Origin: Balanoglossus misakiensis
Lineage: Eukaryota; Animalia; Hemichordata
Assembly: GCA_040954595.2 (NCBI GenBank)
Contig: CM082592.2
Span: 11,044,017-11,108,016, forward strand
Reading direction: 5' to 3'
DNA: 64,000 bases
Under the pieces are notes generated by a model. That model had not been told where the DNA came from. It saw only the letters and a program-made list of their open reading frames with translations, and did no database searches. Shown here piece after piece: positions 50,814 through 63,795 of this stretch (the first letter of the stretch is position 1; each line of letters begins with the position of its first letter). Position numbers and translations under genes: made by a program.

Positions 50814-53800
50814 ATGGAATCGTATACGGACACAGAGTATAGTTACCAAAGACACAGTACACGAACTATCATAGCACTAATCGTTGCTATAATAATAGTC
50901 GCCGCCATTTTGGGCGCAGTTTTATTTAGTATGTACGTCTTCAACGAAAGTAGCAGTAAGTACGATTTAATGTCTGTCTGCATTTGTTCGTCTGTACCTT
51001 CTCTCTCGAATACATGTAAACACACGCGTTTTCATTCTAAAATAGGCTTGACGCGAAAGTTTTATGACCAACCCCCTTTTTAGTAAATCAAATATAACAT
51101 TTCTCTTGTCCTCGACAAATTCTGTAATACATGTATTTCAGAAAACATCCAATTCATGTGAAGGTCACTATGTCAGGAATTATTGATAAAATAATAATTC
51201 GAATTCTGATTTCGCCGTATAAATTCAGAACACTAGGGAGTATATAGTGATTTCGATTTGACTGGACGGATGAAAGGGTAAAGTGTTGTGTACACGAATG
51301 TTAAATTGGATTTGCTACCAATTGAAACGTTTGACTTCTCCCAGTCGTCGATTTGGGTCTACGAGAGATGCATTTATAGCAAAGCGGAATTACTCTTCTT
51401 GTGTAGGTTTCAAAAAAAGACCCATTACCTCACAGAATTACGGCTCTGTTTTATGAACGCCATGTGGTTGCCATGGTTATGATTGTCGTTGGCGTCGATG
51501 ACGGAAACCAATGCAAGCGACATCCGAGAGAAATTTGGCGTTATCGGCACTCAGAAACTAATTTCTAATGCACCAAACAATTACTCAAAACCTAAAATAC
51601 CGACCAAAATAACTAAACAGTGAAATAACTGAGATTGTGCTTGAAATCTTAAAAACAACCCCGATGCCAACATTATTACAGACTAAACTAAAATTATACA
51701 TAAAATCGTGCTGCTGTCAGCGCGTTCACTCGTAGGCGAAAAAAATATTGCCAAAAATAATGTGATATCATTTGATGAAAAATGAATTGACATTTGTCCG
51801 TATCATGTCAGAGAACAGTTTCTGCGTGGGCGTACCAAATGATGTAATTTCAACACAGACTATACACGCAATCCAAGCGGTATGCTTTCACTATTGTTGA
51901 CGTTGTAAACGACATATGTCCACCCTTTACAATGTCCATGTTTTTAAATATCGAGGGAGTCCCATGAAATAAGTTAACCTCTGAAAAATAGAGTTTTTTT
52001 AACCAAGAGGTAAAGGGAATGCCAAAATGTCTGGGTTATCATTCTGGGTCCAAATATTCTAACCAGATACCATGAAATAGAAATGTGCGATTTTTGGATT
52101 ATACGAGTGTCAGCATACCCACTTAGTGTTCTTTAAATAACCCATGCCCCCATTTTATTCGTCATTGTACGTTTACCCTTTAATTGGTATATATATCTTC
52201 CGGATATTGGCCATTTCACTTGGTAATAAATATAGCACATCGCGATAATGTCATTGTGGATGTCTTTAGCGGACAAATTAACATTTCATTATTTTCTGTG
52301 ACCTTTCACAGATGGGGAACACCATTCGACATGTGCTGTCGCCTAAAGTGGGGTTCTGACACCATCTTGTTGTTAACAGCACAAAGTCTATCGTTTATGA
52401 CTCTACCTTGATGAAAATCTCTTAACCCCTCAACTTGTCAACAATACATTACATTTGTACGGTGTAAAATTCACCCTTTGTAAACACCTAAACGTGTGCG
52501 CTCGGCTGTAACTATACGACGGGGGTTTTATATTGCAATATGGTCAAACGGAATAATCTTAATGTGACATGGCATGTCGTTCTGTTCTGACAAGCCCAAT
52601 CTGTTAAATTGCTATGAGAATTAACATACGCGTGGTCGTGTTTCACTCACTACAATTTACCAGCAAAATAACTAAGCCATTCGTTGAGGGCACCCGCCTA
52701 AGGCCAAACTAACCGCATTCACTAGAGATATTCACGCTAATCTCAATGCAGTAACCCTGTCGAGTCGATTTGCAACTGTCCAAAGCAAAATGGGATTGAA
52801 ATGTCACGATACCACACGGTGTCGGTGGGCGGACGTTATAAAAAAAACTTTTCAATATAAAACTACATTATCGTGCGGCGCCTTTATGAAGGTTTGGCAG
52901 TCGTAAAACTTTCACTGGTTTTGATCAATTTTGACTGTCGTGATAGGAATTGTAGCTGCGTTGGTTTTATTCTGATACCATGCAGCAACACAGGGAAATT
53001 TATTATGAGAGACAGGGTCGATTTCGAATTGCAGCACTTAGCCTACATTCTATAATGACGACTGACGTCACGACAGAAGACAAATATCAAGACTTGATTT
53101 TAAGAGACTAACTTTGATCAAACTCTTTCCAGATATTGAAATACCACCCACCAAGCCACCAGTAATTATTGGAGAAAATTCAACTCTAACAATCGAACAG
53201 TCACTACAGATCACATCCGATTGGCTGCTTTCGCAACGGAACAGCCAATACGGTTGGAGCAGTACACCGCAGGTTCTGGTGGCACTTCGGCTGAGCAGGC
53301 CGGATTGGTTCGTGGACGAGAGTCGAACACCTGGTATTCAGGAAATGAATACGCAACTTAGTATTAAACAGATGAATACAGAACTGTTGGAAGAAATGTT
53401 GCCGGTGGCAGAGTAAGTTTTCTTTGGTCTCAGTCACGGTGCCTTGCATCATAGCTACTGTTAAAGCCCCACTGCCACGTATAGCATATTTGTAATCGAT
53501 AAAACGCTGAATTTTACTATTTTTTCTGTATTTCAGCCGTAAAGATGACGAAGTGCGTTATAAGGACCTACGGATGCCAGCGGGCCATTTAGCCATGTAT
53601 GTAAATGCCCTGGTGTCATCCTGCCAGAATCCGGCGGATTTCCACAAATATGATATGACATACTCGTTGGTGGTGGACATGCAGGTCTTTGCAGATGAAG
53701 GAAACAGCAATTATTACTACAAAAGTTTGGCGCTTATAGCACTTTGCAATTCGGATGCCAGGGTGCTGAATGAAGACATTGCTGACGTCAAAGATGCCCA

Positions 53801-55855
53801 GCTGTCAGATGGAAGCTACCGACATGGAATAGGTTCGTTCACCAGAAATGTTAATGTCACAGAACTATTATGTAATTGTTGATCAGGATGTTTTCACTGT
53901 TTTTGAAACACCTGACACCAATTCTTACAACTAAATATAGTATCTTTCTTTCGTAGATGTTGTAGACGTAAAATTCTGTACATGCGCTCTGGTCAGTCGT
54001 GTTGTTTTCACCATGGAAACCAAGACACCAGTGACTGTGGTATGACACAATGCTAAACCACAGACAAAGGGATGGTTTCTGTAGCAGCACTTTTTTACCG
54101 TTACTAGTAACAGAAAACCATAAATATTAACATAATGTCTCATTTTGTCAAAACAGATGCCACGTCGATGGTTGTGGTGGCGCTGTCCTGTTTGTCTCCA
54201 AACAAGAGGAAGAAGACGGATGTCGACGACACAGTATCCAAGGCTGTCGAATACATCCTAGATCAACAGGGTAGTGATGGCAGTTTTGGGAACGTGATAA
54301 ATACAGCCAATGCAGTGCAGGTGAACTCTTTAGTGATATTTCGTTAACATACTCATCTAATGCTTACTCCCAATGTAGCTACTATTAAACTTAGGTCCCT
54401 GTGCAATTCTTCTCAATTCTAGAACGAACTAATGATGAGACTTTCTTGTAGGCGTTATTGTCCTCTGGGATCGAATCTGACAGCCCAACGATAGAAGATG
54501 CTTTGCAGTGGATTCTAAGGAGACAGAACCAGGACGGTTCTTTTGGGTCCGTGTCGCAAACTGCCCAGGTCTTGCCAGCTCTTGCTAAGAAGTCTTACTC
54601 CGATATTAAGAAAGAAACAACTTGCGTTGGTAAGGAAACAACCTTGAATTTGGTTGGTTCACAAAATGATATGATGCCAGTATACGTGGGGGTGGGGATG
54701 GGATGGATAGATTATCATTAACAATTTTCTTCCTTTGATTTGCAGCGGCCCCAACCATGCCGATAACTGACCTCATCACCGTCTACCTATCCGTGAAAAG
54801 CAACGTCATGGGCGACAATAACGTCACAGAGCCCAAGGCCGTCACTATTCCGGTCACTGTGGAATCTGGGTCAAGTCTGCTCGATGTCATGGACAACGCC
54901 GAACAAGCATATGGCGAGCAATTTACGTATGTATAATGTACCTCAGGGGAGGTTTTAGATATCCCGGTTTTGACTTTTCCGTCAAACTCTCCTACTGTTA
55001 AACTAAACACTGTCCAATCGCTAAGAGACCAAACAGTATAGGTCTACATATTTCTTCAATATCACTTACGTACCCATGGAGTTTATAGTATTTTCTGTAC
55101 AAGGAAAGCGGTCGACTTTCCAACACATTTGTTTCAATGCATATCGTTGACATTCCCTTTGACGTCACATTTTCAGATTTAATGCCAGAGGAGGCAGCTG
55201 GGGATCATTTATCGAGTCAATTAATAACCAGGAAGCAATAGAAGATGAAACGTATTGGGCAATACTTACCACAAAGGATGCAGAAACGTCTTTAGGTACG
55301 TCTGGTTGTCGTTGAGGGCGCTGTGGTGACTCAATGGTGATGTCGCGATGTCCTTGCATGTACAAACGTGGCAAACTACACTACACTTTTCATACTACCA
55401 ACTCATGTTCTAGCTAAAATATGTGCGCTTTCTCACCAGTTCTTCTCCAGAAGGCTGGACCCTGCCTCGGGCATGCTAAATCCTCCCAATGTTAAATGTA
55501 AATCGGGGTTCACAGTCTCCAGAGTCTCTCCCTCGCGTTTTCCGCTCGAGCTCCACGATGCTGCGCAGGTATCGCGCAGGTACCATATGAAGTTGCCGTA
55601 AAATGTCGTAGATTTGCGACGAAATGTTGCGACATTGTCAAAATTTTCCAGCATAGTGGTGAGAACGTGTGAAAAAGCAAAATTGCTCACTCGTTTACTT
55701 TGAATATCCATGCATCATAGAGTGGGTAATTGTTTATACAACTTACAAGTATATTTTTAACCATCTTACGTTTTATTTTTATTTTCTCAGGCGTTGATGA
55801 CATCAGACCACAGAATGGGGACACCATTATTCTTCTATACACATACGTCACATGA
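50814..55855 (+). CDS. Cobalamin-binding protein, transcobalamin/intrinsic factor-like, paralog 2, with predicted N-terminal transmembrane anchor (474 aa from ATG 50814; may extend upstream)
   Basis: Exons 50709/50814-50955, 53133-53412, 53537-53832, 54157-54320, 54452-54629, 54746-54926, 55177-55295, 55791-55855; all phases compatible (1,2,1,0,1,2,1). Family-like motifs GHLAMYVNALVSSCQNPADF, NYYYKSLALIALC, IDATSMVVVALSC, DGSFGNVINTANAVQAL, TAQVLPALAKKSY, SWGSFIESIN..YWAIL..GVDDIRPQNGDTI. The first-exon join rests on phase only. Confidence 0.88.
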
Positions 55856-58253: not shown

Positions 58254-61063
58254 TTAGTACCAGGCAGTCTTGGGTTTTGGGTGTGGCTGTCAAACAAAGA
58301 AGAAAAAGAAAGGCATCAGACGTCAGAAAATTTACAGAGTTCATGATGTTGATAAAATGGGTATGCTTTATCTACAAAAGGGGTCTAACGGTGGTAATAC
58401 AATCACAGGGGAAAGACTTGTCTTTGTAGGTCAAAGGGTAGGTGTCATAATTACCTTGGGTTCATAATCTCGGACAGAGAGTCTTGATGCTTCTTCTCTC
58501 AGCATTTCTTCATACTCCCTCTCAGCCATTTTTTCGGCCTCTAATTCTTCCTCCAGTCTCCTCCTGGCATCTATTTCCCTCTCCCTGCGTTCCGTCACCT
58601 GGCCAGAAATCTCCTCCCGGAACTGCAGTTTCTTCTTCTCTTCATCCTCCTGTTCCCGCTTCGTCAGTTGCTGCGCAATTTCCAACTCTCGGAGGAGTTC
58701 CTCACGCCTCTCCAGAGACTCCTCTTGCTGTATTCGAACGTTCTCCATCTTGTCTTGTATCTGTTCCTGTCTGCCTTGCAATACCTGTCATGTGTAGGAA
58801 CCAAATTCAAGTCATTTCAAACATCAAGATGACACTGACAATTCCAATTATGGATACTCTCATCAATGATATGTAAACAACACATAACAATGCATTTCCC
58901 ACACTCACCTCTGACATCAACCTTTCTCTGGCCGTCTTTTCTCTCTCCCACTCAGCCTCTCTCTTCTGCCACTCCCTGGCTGCTTCATCCCTGTCAGACA
59001 AACACACCAACAGTTAAAGGGCCACGATCATCTTATGCGCATGCGCAAAACCAGAGACTCTGGTTGCAAACACTGCCAATGCAAAGACACAAGAGAATAG
59101 ACTAACTCAGATGCCACCCTTAGAGGGCGCACTACACCTTACCTGTACAACATATCCAACTCGGCTTCCCGAGCCTTCTCTAATTTCAACTGTTCTTCAA
59201 TCACTTGTTTCATCCAGGCAGCATCAGCCCTGGCTTTCTCTCTCCTTGCAGTCTGTATTTCTTGGTCTTCTGTTGCTTTTGCGGCCAGTGCAGCAAGGAT
59301 CTTTCTGTCCAGTTCCTGAGATTAAAAGAAGACAAAGTAAGGCACTTTGTTCTGAAACAAAGATTTTGACCCTTCAACTATTCACGATTTGTGATGAAGT
59401 GTAAAGAAAGATTCTCTTACCAAAGCTTCTTGTACTTGCTGAGACTTCCTTCTGAGTTGAGCCTTATACTGTCTGGTCAGTATTCTTCCCAGCTCACTCT
59501 TCTTTCGCCTCTCTTCCAATTCCCGTCGCTCTGATTCCAGCTCTTCCAACTCCCACTGCTGTTTGAGAAGATCTGCTTCTTGAAGCTTCAACTGCTCTGC
59601 CTGTGATAGTGGAACATACAGTGCAACTATGTCAGTTGAAATGTGTCCTGATTCCCTGATAACTCACAGCCTGACCTTGATATGCACACAGAACAATCCT
59701 TCAAATAAGTACCATCACTCATTGAATGCAAGCCAGATGTCAGACTTCTCATGCTCGTATTGCTGCACATATATGAAAATCATCACATTCAGATCTTTAC
59801 CTCAGCTTCCCTGGCTTTTAACTCCATCATCTGGTCTTTCAGCATCTTGGCAAGTTCCTTCTCTTCTTCTAACTTGGACTCTTGCACTTTTCGTTCTCTG
59901 GCCAAAGCAGCAAGTCGTTCTCTCTCCAGCTCTTCGTCAAATTTCCTCTTCTCTTCCCTCGCTGAGTCCAGCCTTAGTTCCATCTCTTCCACTTGCTCTC
60001 CCCATTTGCCGATGACATATTTCTCATGCTGCTCTGATTCAAGCTACACAGCAAGAAGATTAATATTGTATGTGGGATTTAGTTTGAGCAAAACATGTCT
60101 TATCAGGAGCGTCTCTGGCATTGCGCCTCTGACATTGAAACTGTGAGATTCAATAAATGAAACACATAAATACCTTTCTTAAGTCTGGGTTGTTTTTCTT
60201 CCAGTGCTCATACAGTCTTTGATCAGCTACCTGTAAAGTAGAGAAGATTTCAAGTGAGTCACAAATACTTGCACTTTCAGAGATGAACATGCTCTTAGAT
60301 AATAGGTTATCTGGACATGAATTTTGTGATGATGATGTAACTGTACACATACCTGTTTCCTTGCAGTTTCTTTCTGTGTTTTCAACTCTTCGCTCCTTTC
60401 TCTCATGGAATCTAATCTCTCATAATTATCAACTGATAGCCCCTTCAGTTCTGCCTCATACTGGCGCTTTTCATTCCTTAAAAGTTCCTGTAACCTCAAT
60501 CTCCTTTTTGTCAGGTCTTTTTGTTTGGATTCTTTCTCAAACTGTTTCTTGAATGCATCCATGCTACATTATGGAAATGAAGACAAAATATAAACAGGTG
60601 ACACTTGAAAATTTGGATAATGATGATACACACAAAATCGGTGTGTAGAAAAGAGGCATACACATTACTCATTCTACGCATGTATTCACACTTTATGAAT
60701 AGGTAAAGAACTAGTCTACCTATTCAAAAAAGTTAATAACATGCAACGTGAAATCATGTCACAACTTGCTCTGCCCTAAGCATGCTCCCTCAAAAGTTTG
60801 AAATAAAGATTCAAACCTAGTTTGAGTTTTCTGTAATTTGTCACAAAACAAAAATGAAATGTCTCCTACCTGTCCTGGAAAGATCCATCGGACGTCCAAT
60901 CGCGCTGTTTTGTTGTCTGAATATCAGACTGGTGAAAATATCTGGCGTTATTGGACCATTTCTCTCTGAAATCGTTGTCTTGGTTTCTTCGCGATACAAT
61001 GTTTCGCTCTTGGACGTTCTTGTAACGAGTTTGCCAATAGGACGGGAGGGTTGGAAGGGCCAT
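58254..61063 (-). CDS. TCHP: Trichoplein keratin filament-binding protein (500 aa)
   Basis: Exons (plus coordinates) 60870-61063, 60353-60563, 60174-60230, 59801-60043, 59421-59600, 59143-59315, 58909-58990, 58455-58784, 58254-58286; all GT-AG and in frame, 1503 nt. N-terminus [10 protein letters not shown] and internal [10 protein letters not shown] match vertebrate trichoplein as I recall it; E/R/K/Q-rich coiled coil; ends PKTAWY. Confidence 0.95.
59014..59063. repeat. Dispersed repeat fragment in a TCHP intron, homologous to 31260-31309
   Basis: TTAAAGGGCCACGATCATCTTATGCGCATGCGCAAAACCAGAGACTCTGG versus TTAAAGGGCCACGAACGTCTTAAGCGCATGTGCCAAATCGGAGACTCTGG. Confidence 0.65.
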
Positions 61064-61846: not shown

Positions 61847-63795
61847 ATGACATTCTTTAAGACCAGAAAGTTTTATTTTCAACCTGTCAGGGAAGACGGT
61901 AAAGTTGAAACGATACCTTTCCTAAAAGCAGCTCAGGATTGTACGATACCATTTCTCGGTAAGTCCGTGTATGTAAATTACGATAGTGAAACAGGATCCA
62001 ACCGCGTTGATTTGCCGAAAGACTGAACAGAAAAATATCAGAACACAAAATGACAGTCAAGTATGAAGATGACACATTCATATTTTGTCATTGTTTCACA
62101 GACATCTTGGGATCTACAGCATTTAGTCCTGTTAAATCAGATATCAATGGTAATGTAACAGTAAGTTGAATATCTATTTTTATCATACTCGAAAAAGTAC
62201 AGGCAATTTTATCTCTCATTATAATTTTTATTTATGTTTTATTATGATTATATAAAAGGTTACTTGTTGTAAATGAAATATACTAGTACATGTAGTACTG
62301 AACCAATACATAATAATACATGTAAAAGTCAGGTGGTACTTGTATAACTTGATCTATATCATAATATGTACCTGTATTGTTTATATAGAAACTAACCAAG
62401 AAGTTTGAACTTGACCCACAAAAGAACAGTACACTGCAAGATATGATAGATGCAGAAATTGAATCAAAAACAACTCAGAACAAAGGCTCAGCCACAGATG
62501 CCCTGGTCTGGTTAAAGCGGTAAGTTCCATGATAAAGAGGAAACGTTTTCTTAAAAGGTTGGATCCCACTAACTTTCTTTGATTCCATTGGTACAGAAGC
62601 TGACCAAGAAATATGAACTGGACCCAGTCAGTCATATTACACTACAAGAAATGGTTGAGAAAGAATTTGACCAAAATAGCGCCCTCAAACGAGGATCTGC
62701 AACAGAAACTCTCATTTGGTTCAAACGGTAGGGCAAAAACTAGAATATGCAAAATTGCATGTTGGTCAAGTTAAAAGTGATAAATTACTGTCTGTAATTT
62801 CAGTGACAATATCATTTATAACCATAGCAATTGGACGACTGTCTGTGTTAATAAAAAATACAAATTAAAAGTAAAGGTTGTATATGTATCCACACATTTT
62901 CAAAAGTGAACTCTAGCCACCTCATGTATGGAAAAACATGAAGGTAGTTCAATATACATATACGTAAGTTGTGACTCTCCTGTTAAAACATTTTCCATTC
63001 AGGTTACCAGAAAACTTTTCCTACAGGATCCACCTGCACCATGCTGTCAAGTACAAAGCACCTCTTCCCTTGTATCCTATTTTCACATCAACATGACATG
63101 TCTCATGTACAACAATGTATGTATCTGCACCCATCTTGACCATTTGAGTACCCTTAAAAACATTCCCATGGAAACTGTGTGTCTTGACAGGATAAATAAA
63201 TTATGTAAATAAAAAATGTAAACCCTTGAGAAATATGATTGAGACTCATTTGAGAAATGAGGAAATTGCCTCATGGCAGTCCTTGGGTTCCTCAGTTATG
63301 CACCAAATGACAATAATGTGACCAAGGTGTTTCTGAAATTGCAGAAAAATGTTTCTCTCCACAGTGCTTTGGAGTTCATTCGAGGAATGTTTCAAAACAT
63401 CCTGGATGGAATTAATGATGGAGAGAACCTAACACCATGTGCCATGAAGTCCTATGAACAGAATCTTAAACCATACCATGGCTGGATGGTACAAAAAATA
63501 TTTAGTGTAAGTGAAAATTAGCTTTGCCAACTGCCAGTGTTACTGTAAATTATTATGTCTAACTTTTAGGAAAGACTAAACTTCAACCATGACTCACTGT
63601 CTTGTTTATCTTTCCCAGCTTCTACTGAAAGCCATGCCATACAGGAAAGACTTGATAAAGGCCTTGGGAAATGGACTTGATGAGGACGAAGTTCTGAAGG
63701 ACATGAAGGATTTTATGGAGTTATATAGCCAAAATGTTGACACAATAGTGGAAATGTACAAATCTAGAAATATAGATATGGAATTCAGGGTCTGA
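61847..63795 (+). CDS. GLTP: Glycolipid transfer protein (GLTP-fold, 206 aa)
   Basis: Exons 61847-61958, 62102-62160, 62389-62519 (or 62597-62727), 63365-63506, 63619-63795. Motifs FSPVKSDINGNVTKL, ATDALVWLKRALEF, YEQNLKPYHGWMVQKIF contain the D, N, K, W and H sugar-recognition residues of the GLTP fold; no PH domain, unlike FAPP2/PLEKHA8. Confidence 0.9.
62389..62519 (+). CDS. GLTP: GLTP exon 3a (131 nt)
   Basis: TAG acceptor, CG|GTAAGT donor; KLTKKFELDPQKNSTLQDMIDAEIESKTTQNKGSATDALVWLKR. Confidence 0.9.
62597..62727 (+). CDS. GLTP: GLTP exon 3b (131 nt), duplicated alternative exon
   Basis: CACTAAC branch site at 62567-62573, CAG acceptor, CG|GTAGGG donor; KLTKKYELDPVSHITLQEMVEKEFDQNSALKRGSATETLIWFKR, same length and phases as 3a. 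Confidence 0.85.

What the first reader, a model, noticed from the sequence alone, without database searches (positions are those of the whole stretch)
62389..62727. Duplicated, mutually exclusive exon swaps the ligand-recognition segment of GLTP
Seen: two homologous exons, each exactly 131 nt with phases 0 to 2, both intact and separated by 77 nt. Including both reads CGA AGC TGA (immediate stop); skipping both frameshifts exon 4 to a stop; so only one-of-two gives protein. The branch site of 3b lies ~52 nt from the 3a donor, near the steric limit for splicing them together. Ends are conserved (KLTKK.ELDP, GSAT..L.W.KR) while the middle has diverged, suggesting selection on both. Established: this segment holds the K55 and W96 equivalents that contact the glycolipid headgroup in human GLTP. 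Inference: a splicing switch (ATDALVWLKR versus ATETLIWFKR) producing two transfer proteins with different lipid specificity from one gene. I know of no such arrangement in vertebrate GLTP.
Basis: partly seen in the sequence, partly recalled or inferred. Interest (0 to 1): 0.8.

Follow-up and report, generated by a model that had tools for sequence, protein, structure and literature searches.

The report
Acorn-worm GLTP with two swappable exons
An acorn-worm-type gene for a glycolipid-carrying protein has two old copies of its third exon, only one of which can be used at a time, so it likely makes two versions that keep the same core sugar-binding residues but differ in the loop and pocket rim predicted to tune which lipids or membranes they handle.

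Summary
Two intact 131-nt exons (62389-62519, 62597-62727), 77 nt apart, lie in a five-exon GLTP gene. Either one gives a 206-aa protein; both or neither give an early stop. RefSeq X1/X2 models of Ptychodera flava and Glandiceps talaboti, two acorn-worm families, differ only inside this exon. B exons form one clade (98/93), so the duplication is old and both copies are kept. No RNA run was listed, so use in this species was not seen directly. The interpretation needs a correction: the K55 and W96 equivalents are identical in both exons. The conserved differences sit at the pocket rim and in the helix 3-4 'ID-loop'. A has K89/D94/A95 (human K87/L92/A93); B has K88/E94/T95, and T95 occurs in 0 of 150 family representatives. 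Altered lipid or membrane selectivity is plausible but untested; neutral versus charged is not supported, as both carry an acid at 94. A new lead: one intron site (63022-63036) can pair with sequence before either exon. Verdict: a new member of a known kind (tandem-duplicated mutually exclusive exons), not found described for GLTP in my searches.

The parts
61847..61958 (+). GLTP coding exon 1 (112 nt, ends phase 1)
   Evidence: tblastn to P. flava residues 1-37, 92%
62102..62160 (+). GLTP exon 2 (59 nt, same size as vertebrate exon 2); encodes the D48 and N52 equivalents (D51, N55)
62389..62519 (+). Exon 3a, ancestral-type copy (residues 58-101; K89, D94, A95)
   Evidence: matches RefSeq X1 of P. 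flava 38 of 43 and G. talaboti 35 of 43
62520..62596 (+). 77-nt intron between the two copies; candidate branch A at 62572 (intron position 53)
   Evidence: branch point is a motif match, not mapped
62597..62727 (+). Exon 3b, derived copy (K88, E94, T95)
   Evidence: matches RefSeq X2 of P. flava 30 of 43 and G. talaboti 29 of 43
63365..63506 (+). GLTP exon 4 (142 nt); encodes the H140 equivalent (H139)
63619..63795 (+). GLTP coding exon 5 to the stop codon
62328..62344 (+). Candidate selector arm before exon 3a (predicted RNA pairing only)
   Evidence: -20.3 kcal/mol with 63022-63039; pair probability about 0.9 in an 800-nt fold
62556..62566 (+). Candidate selector arm just before the 3b branch motif (predicted RNA pairing only, weak)
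   Evidence: -15.9 kcal/mol with 63026-63035; pair probability about 0.01; not significant alone
63022..63036 (+). Candidate shared docking site in the intron after 3b (predicted, found post hoc)

Best explanation
The gene carries two homologous copies of GLTP exon 3, kept in at least two acorn-worm families, that are likely spliced one at a time to give two 206-residue transfer proteins predicted to differ in fine lipid selectivity or membrane docking. Shown by sequence: only one-of-two inclusion keeps the frame; the core recognition residues (D48, N52, K55, W96, R99, H140 equivalents) are shared. Shown by comparison: both copies are conserved across species, 3a is the ancestral type and 3b carries its own fixed residues. 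Inferred: transcripts with both or neither exon are removed by nonsense-mediated decay, helped by the short donor-to-branch distance and possibly by two intron arms competing for one docking site. Inferred: swapping helix 3, the helix 3-4 ID-loop and the first turn of helix 4 moves a lysine (89 to 88) and changes D94/A95 to E94/T95 at the rim next to the sugar's 6-position, which would retune cargo preference or membrane contact without changing the basic sugar-ceramide grip.
For: Frame logic. RefSeq X1/X2 in two species differ only here. B exons are one clade, 98/93; holding the window's two exons together is rejected, p-AU 0.003, and P. flava's, p 0.011. dN/dS between the window's two exons is 0.34/1.31. 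Fixed A-versus-B differences at 78, 94, 95; K89 in 4 of 4 A-type and 0 of 3 B; K88 in 3 of 3 B and 0 of 4 A. T95 in 0 of 150 family representatives, where 148 have A, G or S. Numbering from the alignment to human GLTP. A recess between Leu92 and Lys87 holds the 6-O-sulfo group of disulfatide (PMC3606038 passage). The helix 3-4 loop has been implicated in the differing glycolipid specificity of FAPP2 and GLTP (PMC8953657 passages) and holds a PI(4,5)P2 site in CPTP (PMC8091061 passages). The model of P. flava X2 places loop 83-91 between helices 73-82 and 92-114 (pLDDT 96.8; TM 0.90 to human GLTP).
Against: No junction reads were seen for any species; use of both exons rests on RefSeq models. 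No transfer assay exists for either form. K55 and W96 are the same in both, both have an acid at 94, and the net exon charge is 0 in both window exons. The window's B exon keeps a basic residue (R) at 89, so loss of the K87-like charge is not general. Holding the Glandiceps pair together is not rejected (p 0.061) and A-type exons are not recovered as a clade (43 columns only). B copies are less conserved than A copies (25-30 versus 32-38 of 43), which also fits relaxed constraint. The fold model was built on a family alignment and would look like GLTP for either exon.
Confidence: 0.62

Rival explanations
1. Both isoforms are made and carry the same lipids in the same way; the exon swap changes something else, such as a partner surface, dimer contact, stability or tissue-specific turnover.
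For: Every listed recognition-centre and tunnel residue of human GLTP (PMC2262070 passages) except K55 and W96 maps outside this exon, and those two are invariant. Many differences fall on helix 3 and the helix 2-3 loop (positions 68-82).
Against: Two of the three fixed A-versus-B differences (94, 95) and the lysine shift sit beside W96 at the rim named in PMC3606038.
Confidence: 0.22
2. Exon 3b gives a weak or inactive protein, or is kept mainly for splicing control of GLTP level through unproductive transcripts.
For: 3b scores lower against the family profile (49-72 versus 84-101 bits), has the weakest donor of the gene (5 of 9 consensus matches) and a residue (T95) unseen in 150 representatives. 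The strongest predicted helix would loop out both exons.
Against: Length, frame and 24 of 43 residues are invariant among the three 3b copies, including all core residues; regulation alone would not need that.
Confidence: 0.1
3. The second copy is a recent or repeated species-specific duplicate, or a gene-prediction artefact, with no maintained role.
For: No RNA evidence seen here; no B-type protein of Saccoglossus came up in the searches.
Against: Orthologous B copies in two other species, clade support 98/93, species-specific pairing rejected for two of three species.
Confidence: 0.04

Closest known systems
Tandem exon duplication-derived substitutions / homologous mutually exclusive exons (human catalogue, PMC8373072; PMC5740500)
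   Same: Two adjacent homologous exons of equal length and phase, length not divisible by three, conserved over long times, differing near a functional site.
   Different: No GLTP, PLEKHA8 or CPTP entry in either human catalogue's text or held supplements. Here the event is seen only in acorn worms.
Vertebrate GLTP (five exons, PMC2262070)
   Same: Same five-exon plan and phases (103/59/134/151/183 versus 112/59/131/142/177), same D-N-K-W-R-H motif, TM 0.90, neighbour with a TPH-like domain as human GLTP neighbours TCHP.
   Different: Vertebrates list one exon 3. Human has L92 where both acorn-worm copies have an acid, and Y207 where the window gene has F.
FAPP2 (PLEKHA8) GLTP domain
   Same: Best PDB sequence hit for each isolated exon; carries E at the L92 position like exon 3b.
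   Different: FAPP2 is a separate multidomain gene with a PH domain; the window gene is single-domain and closer to GLTP over its length (E 1.6e-40 versus 1.1e-28 for the P. flava orthologue).
Docking-site/selector control of mutually exclusive exons (Dscam, 14-3-3 zeta, Mhc; PMC6071210)
   Same: One downstream intron site complementary to two arms.
   Different: Both arms lie upstream of their exon, so the stronger pairing would enclose both exons; the classical downstream layout (an arm after each exon) was tested and not met (29 of 77 shuffles as good). No conservation test was possible.

Membership tests
GLTP family (glycolipid-type) | Pfam GLTP match | tested here: met
   Exons 3a, 3b and 4 each pass the PF08718 cut-off
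GLTP family (glycolipid-type) | DxxxNxxK...WxxR...H motif (PMC8953657) | tested here: met
   D51, N55, K58, W98, R101, H139 in both isoforms
GLTP family (glycolipid-type) | Two-layer all-helical GLTP fold | tested here: met
   Model of the P. flava B isoform, pLDDT 96.8, TM 0.90 to 2euk; alignment-guided, not the window's own protein
GLTP family (glycolipid-type) | Five-exon plan with vertebrate phases | tested here: met
GLTP family (glycolipid-type) | Glycolipid transfer activity | not testable with these tools
   Needs an assay
Homologous mutually exclusive exons | Adjacent homologous exons, same phase, similar length | tested here: met
Homologous mutually exclusive exons | Only one-of-two inclusion gives full protein | tested here: met
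Homologous mutually exclusive exons | Each exon seen in mRNA, joined reads rare | tested here: inconclusive
   No RNA run listed. RefSeq X1/X2 models in two relatives are indirect support; that such models need transcript support is recalled, not checked
Homologous mutually exclusive exons | Both copies conserved across species | tested here: met
   3 species, at least 2 families
Steric-interference exclusion | Donor to branch point under 50 nt (PMC5740500) | tested here: not met
   Predicted branch A at intron position 53; borderline and unmapped
Docking-site/selector exclusion | One site complementary to two competing arms, beyond chance | tested here: inconclusive
   Summed statistic reached by 1 of 258, 0 of 111 and 0 of 110 controls; second arm alone by 32 of 111 and 39 of 110; layout chosen post hoc
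Docking-site/selector exclusion | Arms conserved with compensatory changes in relatives | not testable with these tools
   No orthologous intron DNA was reachable

The most novel reading that the evidence does not exclude
Acorn worms have kept, possibly for over 300 million years, a splicing switch that swaps the specificity (ID) loop and pocket rim of GLTP, so one gene gives two carriers with different glycolipid cargo or membrane targets, a job vertebrates split between separate genes; the choice is made by two intron arms, each beside a branch region, competing for one downstream docking site that encloses the exons.
Probability: 0.22. Interest if true: 0.72.

Novelty: new member of a known kind. 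Interest (0 to 1): 0.5.

Why it matters
The two isoforms are a natural matched pair: identical outside residues 63-99 and sharing all core sugar contacts. They give a direct test of the proposal that the helix 3-4 ID-loop and the K87/L92 rim set glycolipid selectivity in GLTP-fold proteins. It would also be a case of exon duplication, not gene duplication, diversifying a lipid transfer protein. The kind of event is well known, and the isoforms already sit unremarked in RefSeq for two species.

Tried and rejected
No whole genome is held. No RNA holder was listed, so no reads were laid. The metagenome scan gave 1 locus from 111 pattern matches; it is a chance match inside a non-GLTP open frame and was rejected. 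A search with the three B exons returned only P. flava X2 among 113 candidates (weak negative). A single-sequence fold failed (pLDDT 40.3). Isoforms of Montipora (4 proteins) and Branchiostoma (cluster of 8) differ at the N-terminus and all carry an A-type segment, so no similar switch was seen there; no genome DNA was checked for them. Upstream-docker and classical downstream-docker layouts were not beyond shuffles (44 of 89; 29 of 77). A simple complementarity score found no region pair beyond shuffles (best 236 of 1000), and the two candidate arms' introns are not detectably similar (458 of 1000). The ESM Atlas gave no usable hit for the neighbour gene's first exon. Three look-ups of earlier scan findings returned nothing. 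The FAPP2 structure paper and the GLTP-fold review are not held. A neutral-versus-charged switch through K55/W96 was rejected because those residues are invariant.

Full report
Observation. The window holds a five-exon GLTP gene on the plus strand: 61847-61958, 62102-62160, a third exon, 63365-63506 and 63619-63795. The third exon is present twice, at 62389-62519 (3a) and 62597-62727 (3b). Both are 131 nt, bounded by AG and GT, open in the same frame, and 77 nt apart. They share 86 of 131 bases and 21 of 43 residues, and each passes the Pfam GLTP cut-off alone. Joined in a script, either copy gives 206 residues. Both together stop at 62601-62603 and neither stops at 63413-63415, which are 266 and 91 nt before the last junction; by the usual 50-55 nt rule (recalled) both would be decay targets. 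No second GLTP gene is in the window.

Identity of the gene. Exon sizes and phases match the vertebrate GLTP plan of 103/59/134/151/183 nt (PMC2262070, section 9 read whole). The P. flava orthologue matches human GLTP at E 1.6e-40 and FAPP2 at 1.1e-28. The head-to-head neighbour has TPH-domain matches below the Pfam cut-off; I recognise its start as trichoplein from memory, and human GLTP and TCHP lie in one 130-kb segment (PMC4231109, one table passage). The nearest proteins are from acorn worms: outside exon 3 the window protein is identical to P. flava at 122 of 163 positions and to Saccoglossus at 102 of 163. The window is therefore likely from an enteropneust.

Conservation. RefSeq has isoforms X1 and X2 of this gene in Ptychodera flava (Ptychoderidae) and Glandiceps talaboti (Spengelidae). 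In both, X1 and X2 differ only within the exon 3 span: 21 differences in residues 65-95 and 19 in 63-99. X1 matches 3a and X2 matches 3b. Identity is 32-38 of 43 among A-type segments, 25-30 among B-type and 21-24 between types. In a tree of 21 segments (7 acorn-worm, plus 14 of the 19 other hits; P0007, P0011, P0012, P0020 and P0024 left out by hand), B copies form a clade at 98/93. Pairing the two copies within a species is rejected for the window (p 0.003) and P. flava (p 0.011) but not for Glandiceps (p 0.061), and A copies are not recovered as a clade. Between the window's two exons dN is 0.34 and dS 1.31, near saturation. PMC11175523 (passages) calls the two families sisters and puts the ancestor of P. 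flava and a spengelid at more than 370 million years; I recall that figure coming from a Saccoglossus-Ptychodera comparison, so the true age may be lower. Only an A-type Saccoglossus (Harrimaniidae) protein came up; its genome could not be checked. Coral, amphioxus, echinoderm and priapulid proteins that I held showed no B-type segment: the B motif was in 2 of 223 proteins, the two X2 isoforms.

Expression. No RNA run was listed and no genome is held, so use of both exons in this species was not observed. The RefSeq pairs are indirect support; that such alternative models rest on aligned transcripts is my recollection.

What the swap changes. In a model of P. flava X2 built on 93 sequences (5 acorn-worm, 14 of 19, 74 of 148 picked by hand for single-domain length; pLDDT 96.8; TM 0.90 to human GLTP), the exon covers the end of helix 2, helix 3 (73-82), the loop 83-91 and the start of helix 4. 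From the alignment, window residues 58, 89, 94, 95, 98 and 101 equal human K55, K87, L92, A93, W96 and R99. K58, W98 and R101 are the same in all 7 segments, and D48, N52 and H140 equivalents lie in shared exons. Residues 81-89 all differ between the window's copies. Fixed differences across species are D/E78, D/E94 and A/T95; K89 is in 4 of 4 A and 0 of 3 B, K88 in 3 of 3 B and 0 of 4 A. Among 150 family representatives position 95 is A, G or S in 148 and T in 0; position 94 is D in 65 and E in 21. FAPP2 has E at 94. Exon 3a is thus the ancestral type and 3b the derived one (profile scores 84-101 versus 49-72 bits). In human GLTP a recess between Leu92 and Lys87 holds the 6-O-sulfo group of disulfatide (PMC3606038, one passage). 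The helix 3-4 ID-loop has been implicated in the differing glycolipid specificity of FAPP2 and GLTP (PMC8953657, passages) and carries a PI(4,5)P2 site in CPTP (PMC8091061, passages). The primary FAPP2 structure paper and the GLTP-fold review were not held, and may bear on this. From memory, an acid at the L92 position goes with preference for simple neutral glycolipids in FAPP2 and HET-C2; both copies have one, so a neutral-versus-charged switch is doubtful. Against a large functional change: net exon charge is 0 in both window copies and the window's 3b keeps an arginine at 89.

How exclusion may work. Frameshift with decay is shown at the level of reading frame and is the commonest situation in human clusters (377 clusters, 60%; PMC5740500, passages). 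The predicted branch A of the 77-nt intron is at position 53, just outside that paper's under-50 criterion, so steric blocking may help but is not met. A new lead came from the repeat scan: the site 63022-63036 has as its two best partners, among all 20-nt windows from 62161 to 62994, the stretch 62328-62344 before 3a (-20.3 kcal/mol) and 62556-62566 just before the 3b branch motif (-15.9). With the docking window free to move over the whole intron, the summed energy was reached by 1 of 258 selector shuffles, 0 of 111 docker shuffles and 0 of 110 real GC-matched segment pairs. The first arm drives this (1 of 258, 1 of 111, 0 of 110). The second alone is ordinary (32 of 111, 39 of 110; 84 of 100), and its pair probability in an 800-nt fold is about 0.01 against about 0.9 for the first. 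The layout was chosen after looking, among six region pairs and three layouts; a simpler score saw nothing; and the stronger helix would enclose both exons, unlike the layouts in PMC6071210 (passages). I give it about 0.3 of being functional.

Known and new. Tandem-duplicated exclusive exons are an established class: 236 human cases, mostly ancient, said to cluster near functional sites (PMC8373072, passages). GLTP, PLEKHA8 and CPTP are absent from that paper's held supplement (1 file) and from the 10 held files of PMC5740500; control gene names were found in both. Full-text searches for glycolipid transfer protein with mutually exclusive exon gave 0 papers; the listings, seen as listings only apart from the papers named above, showed no report of this event. 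The library lacks most subscription journals. Verdict: a real, conserved, new member of a known kind, with an untested but well-placed functional difference. Interest 0.5.

Noticed in passing
window 1-23321: A tandem array of an 87-nt unit, 267.8 copies, 98% matches, with steady GC skew near 0.2; a very homogeneous satellite running off the window's start.
   Followed up: no
window about 58431-61063, minus strand: A multi-exon coiled-coil gene head-to-head with GLTP, start codons 784 nt apart; TPH-domain matches below cut-off. Likely trichoplein (name recalled); human GLTP and TCHP are neighbours at 12q24.11, so the pair may be an old conserved linkage.
   Followed up: partly
window 53514-53879, plus strand: An exon-like frame matching the eukaryotic cobalamin-binding protein family (Pfam PF01122, E 6.1e-08), probably part of a gene that includes 53066-53416.
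   Followed up: no
window 63784-63792 (end of GLTP exon 5): The human Y207 position is F in the window protein and in the three other acorn-worm species' proteins; shared by both isoforms.
   Followed up: no
window 62760-62776: A stretch just after the 3b donor is partly complementary to the start of exon 3a, to a part of exon 3b and to the intron before 3a; not beyond shuffles by a simple score (236 and 604 of 1000).
   Followed up: partly
L001:2225-2281: Metagenome contig hit to the exon's first residues is a chance match in an unrelated open frame.
   Followed up: yes
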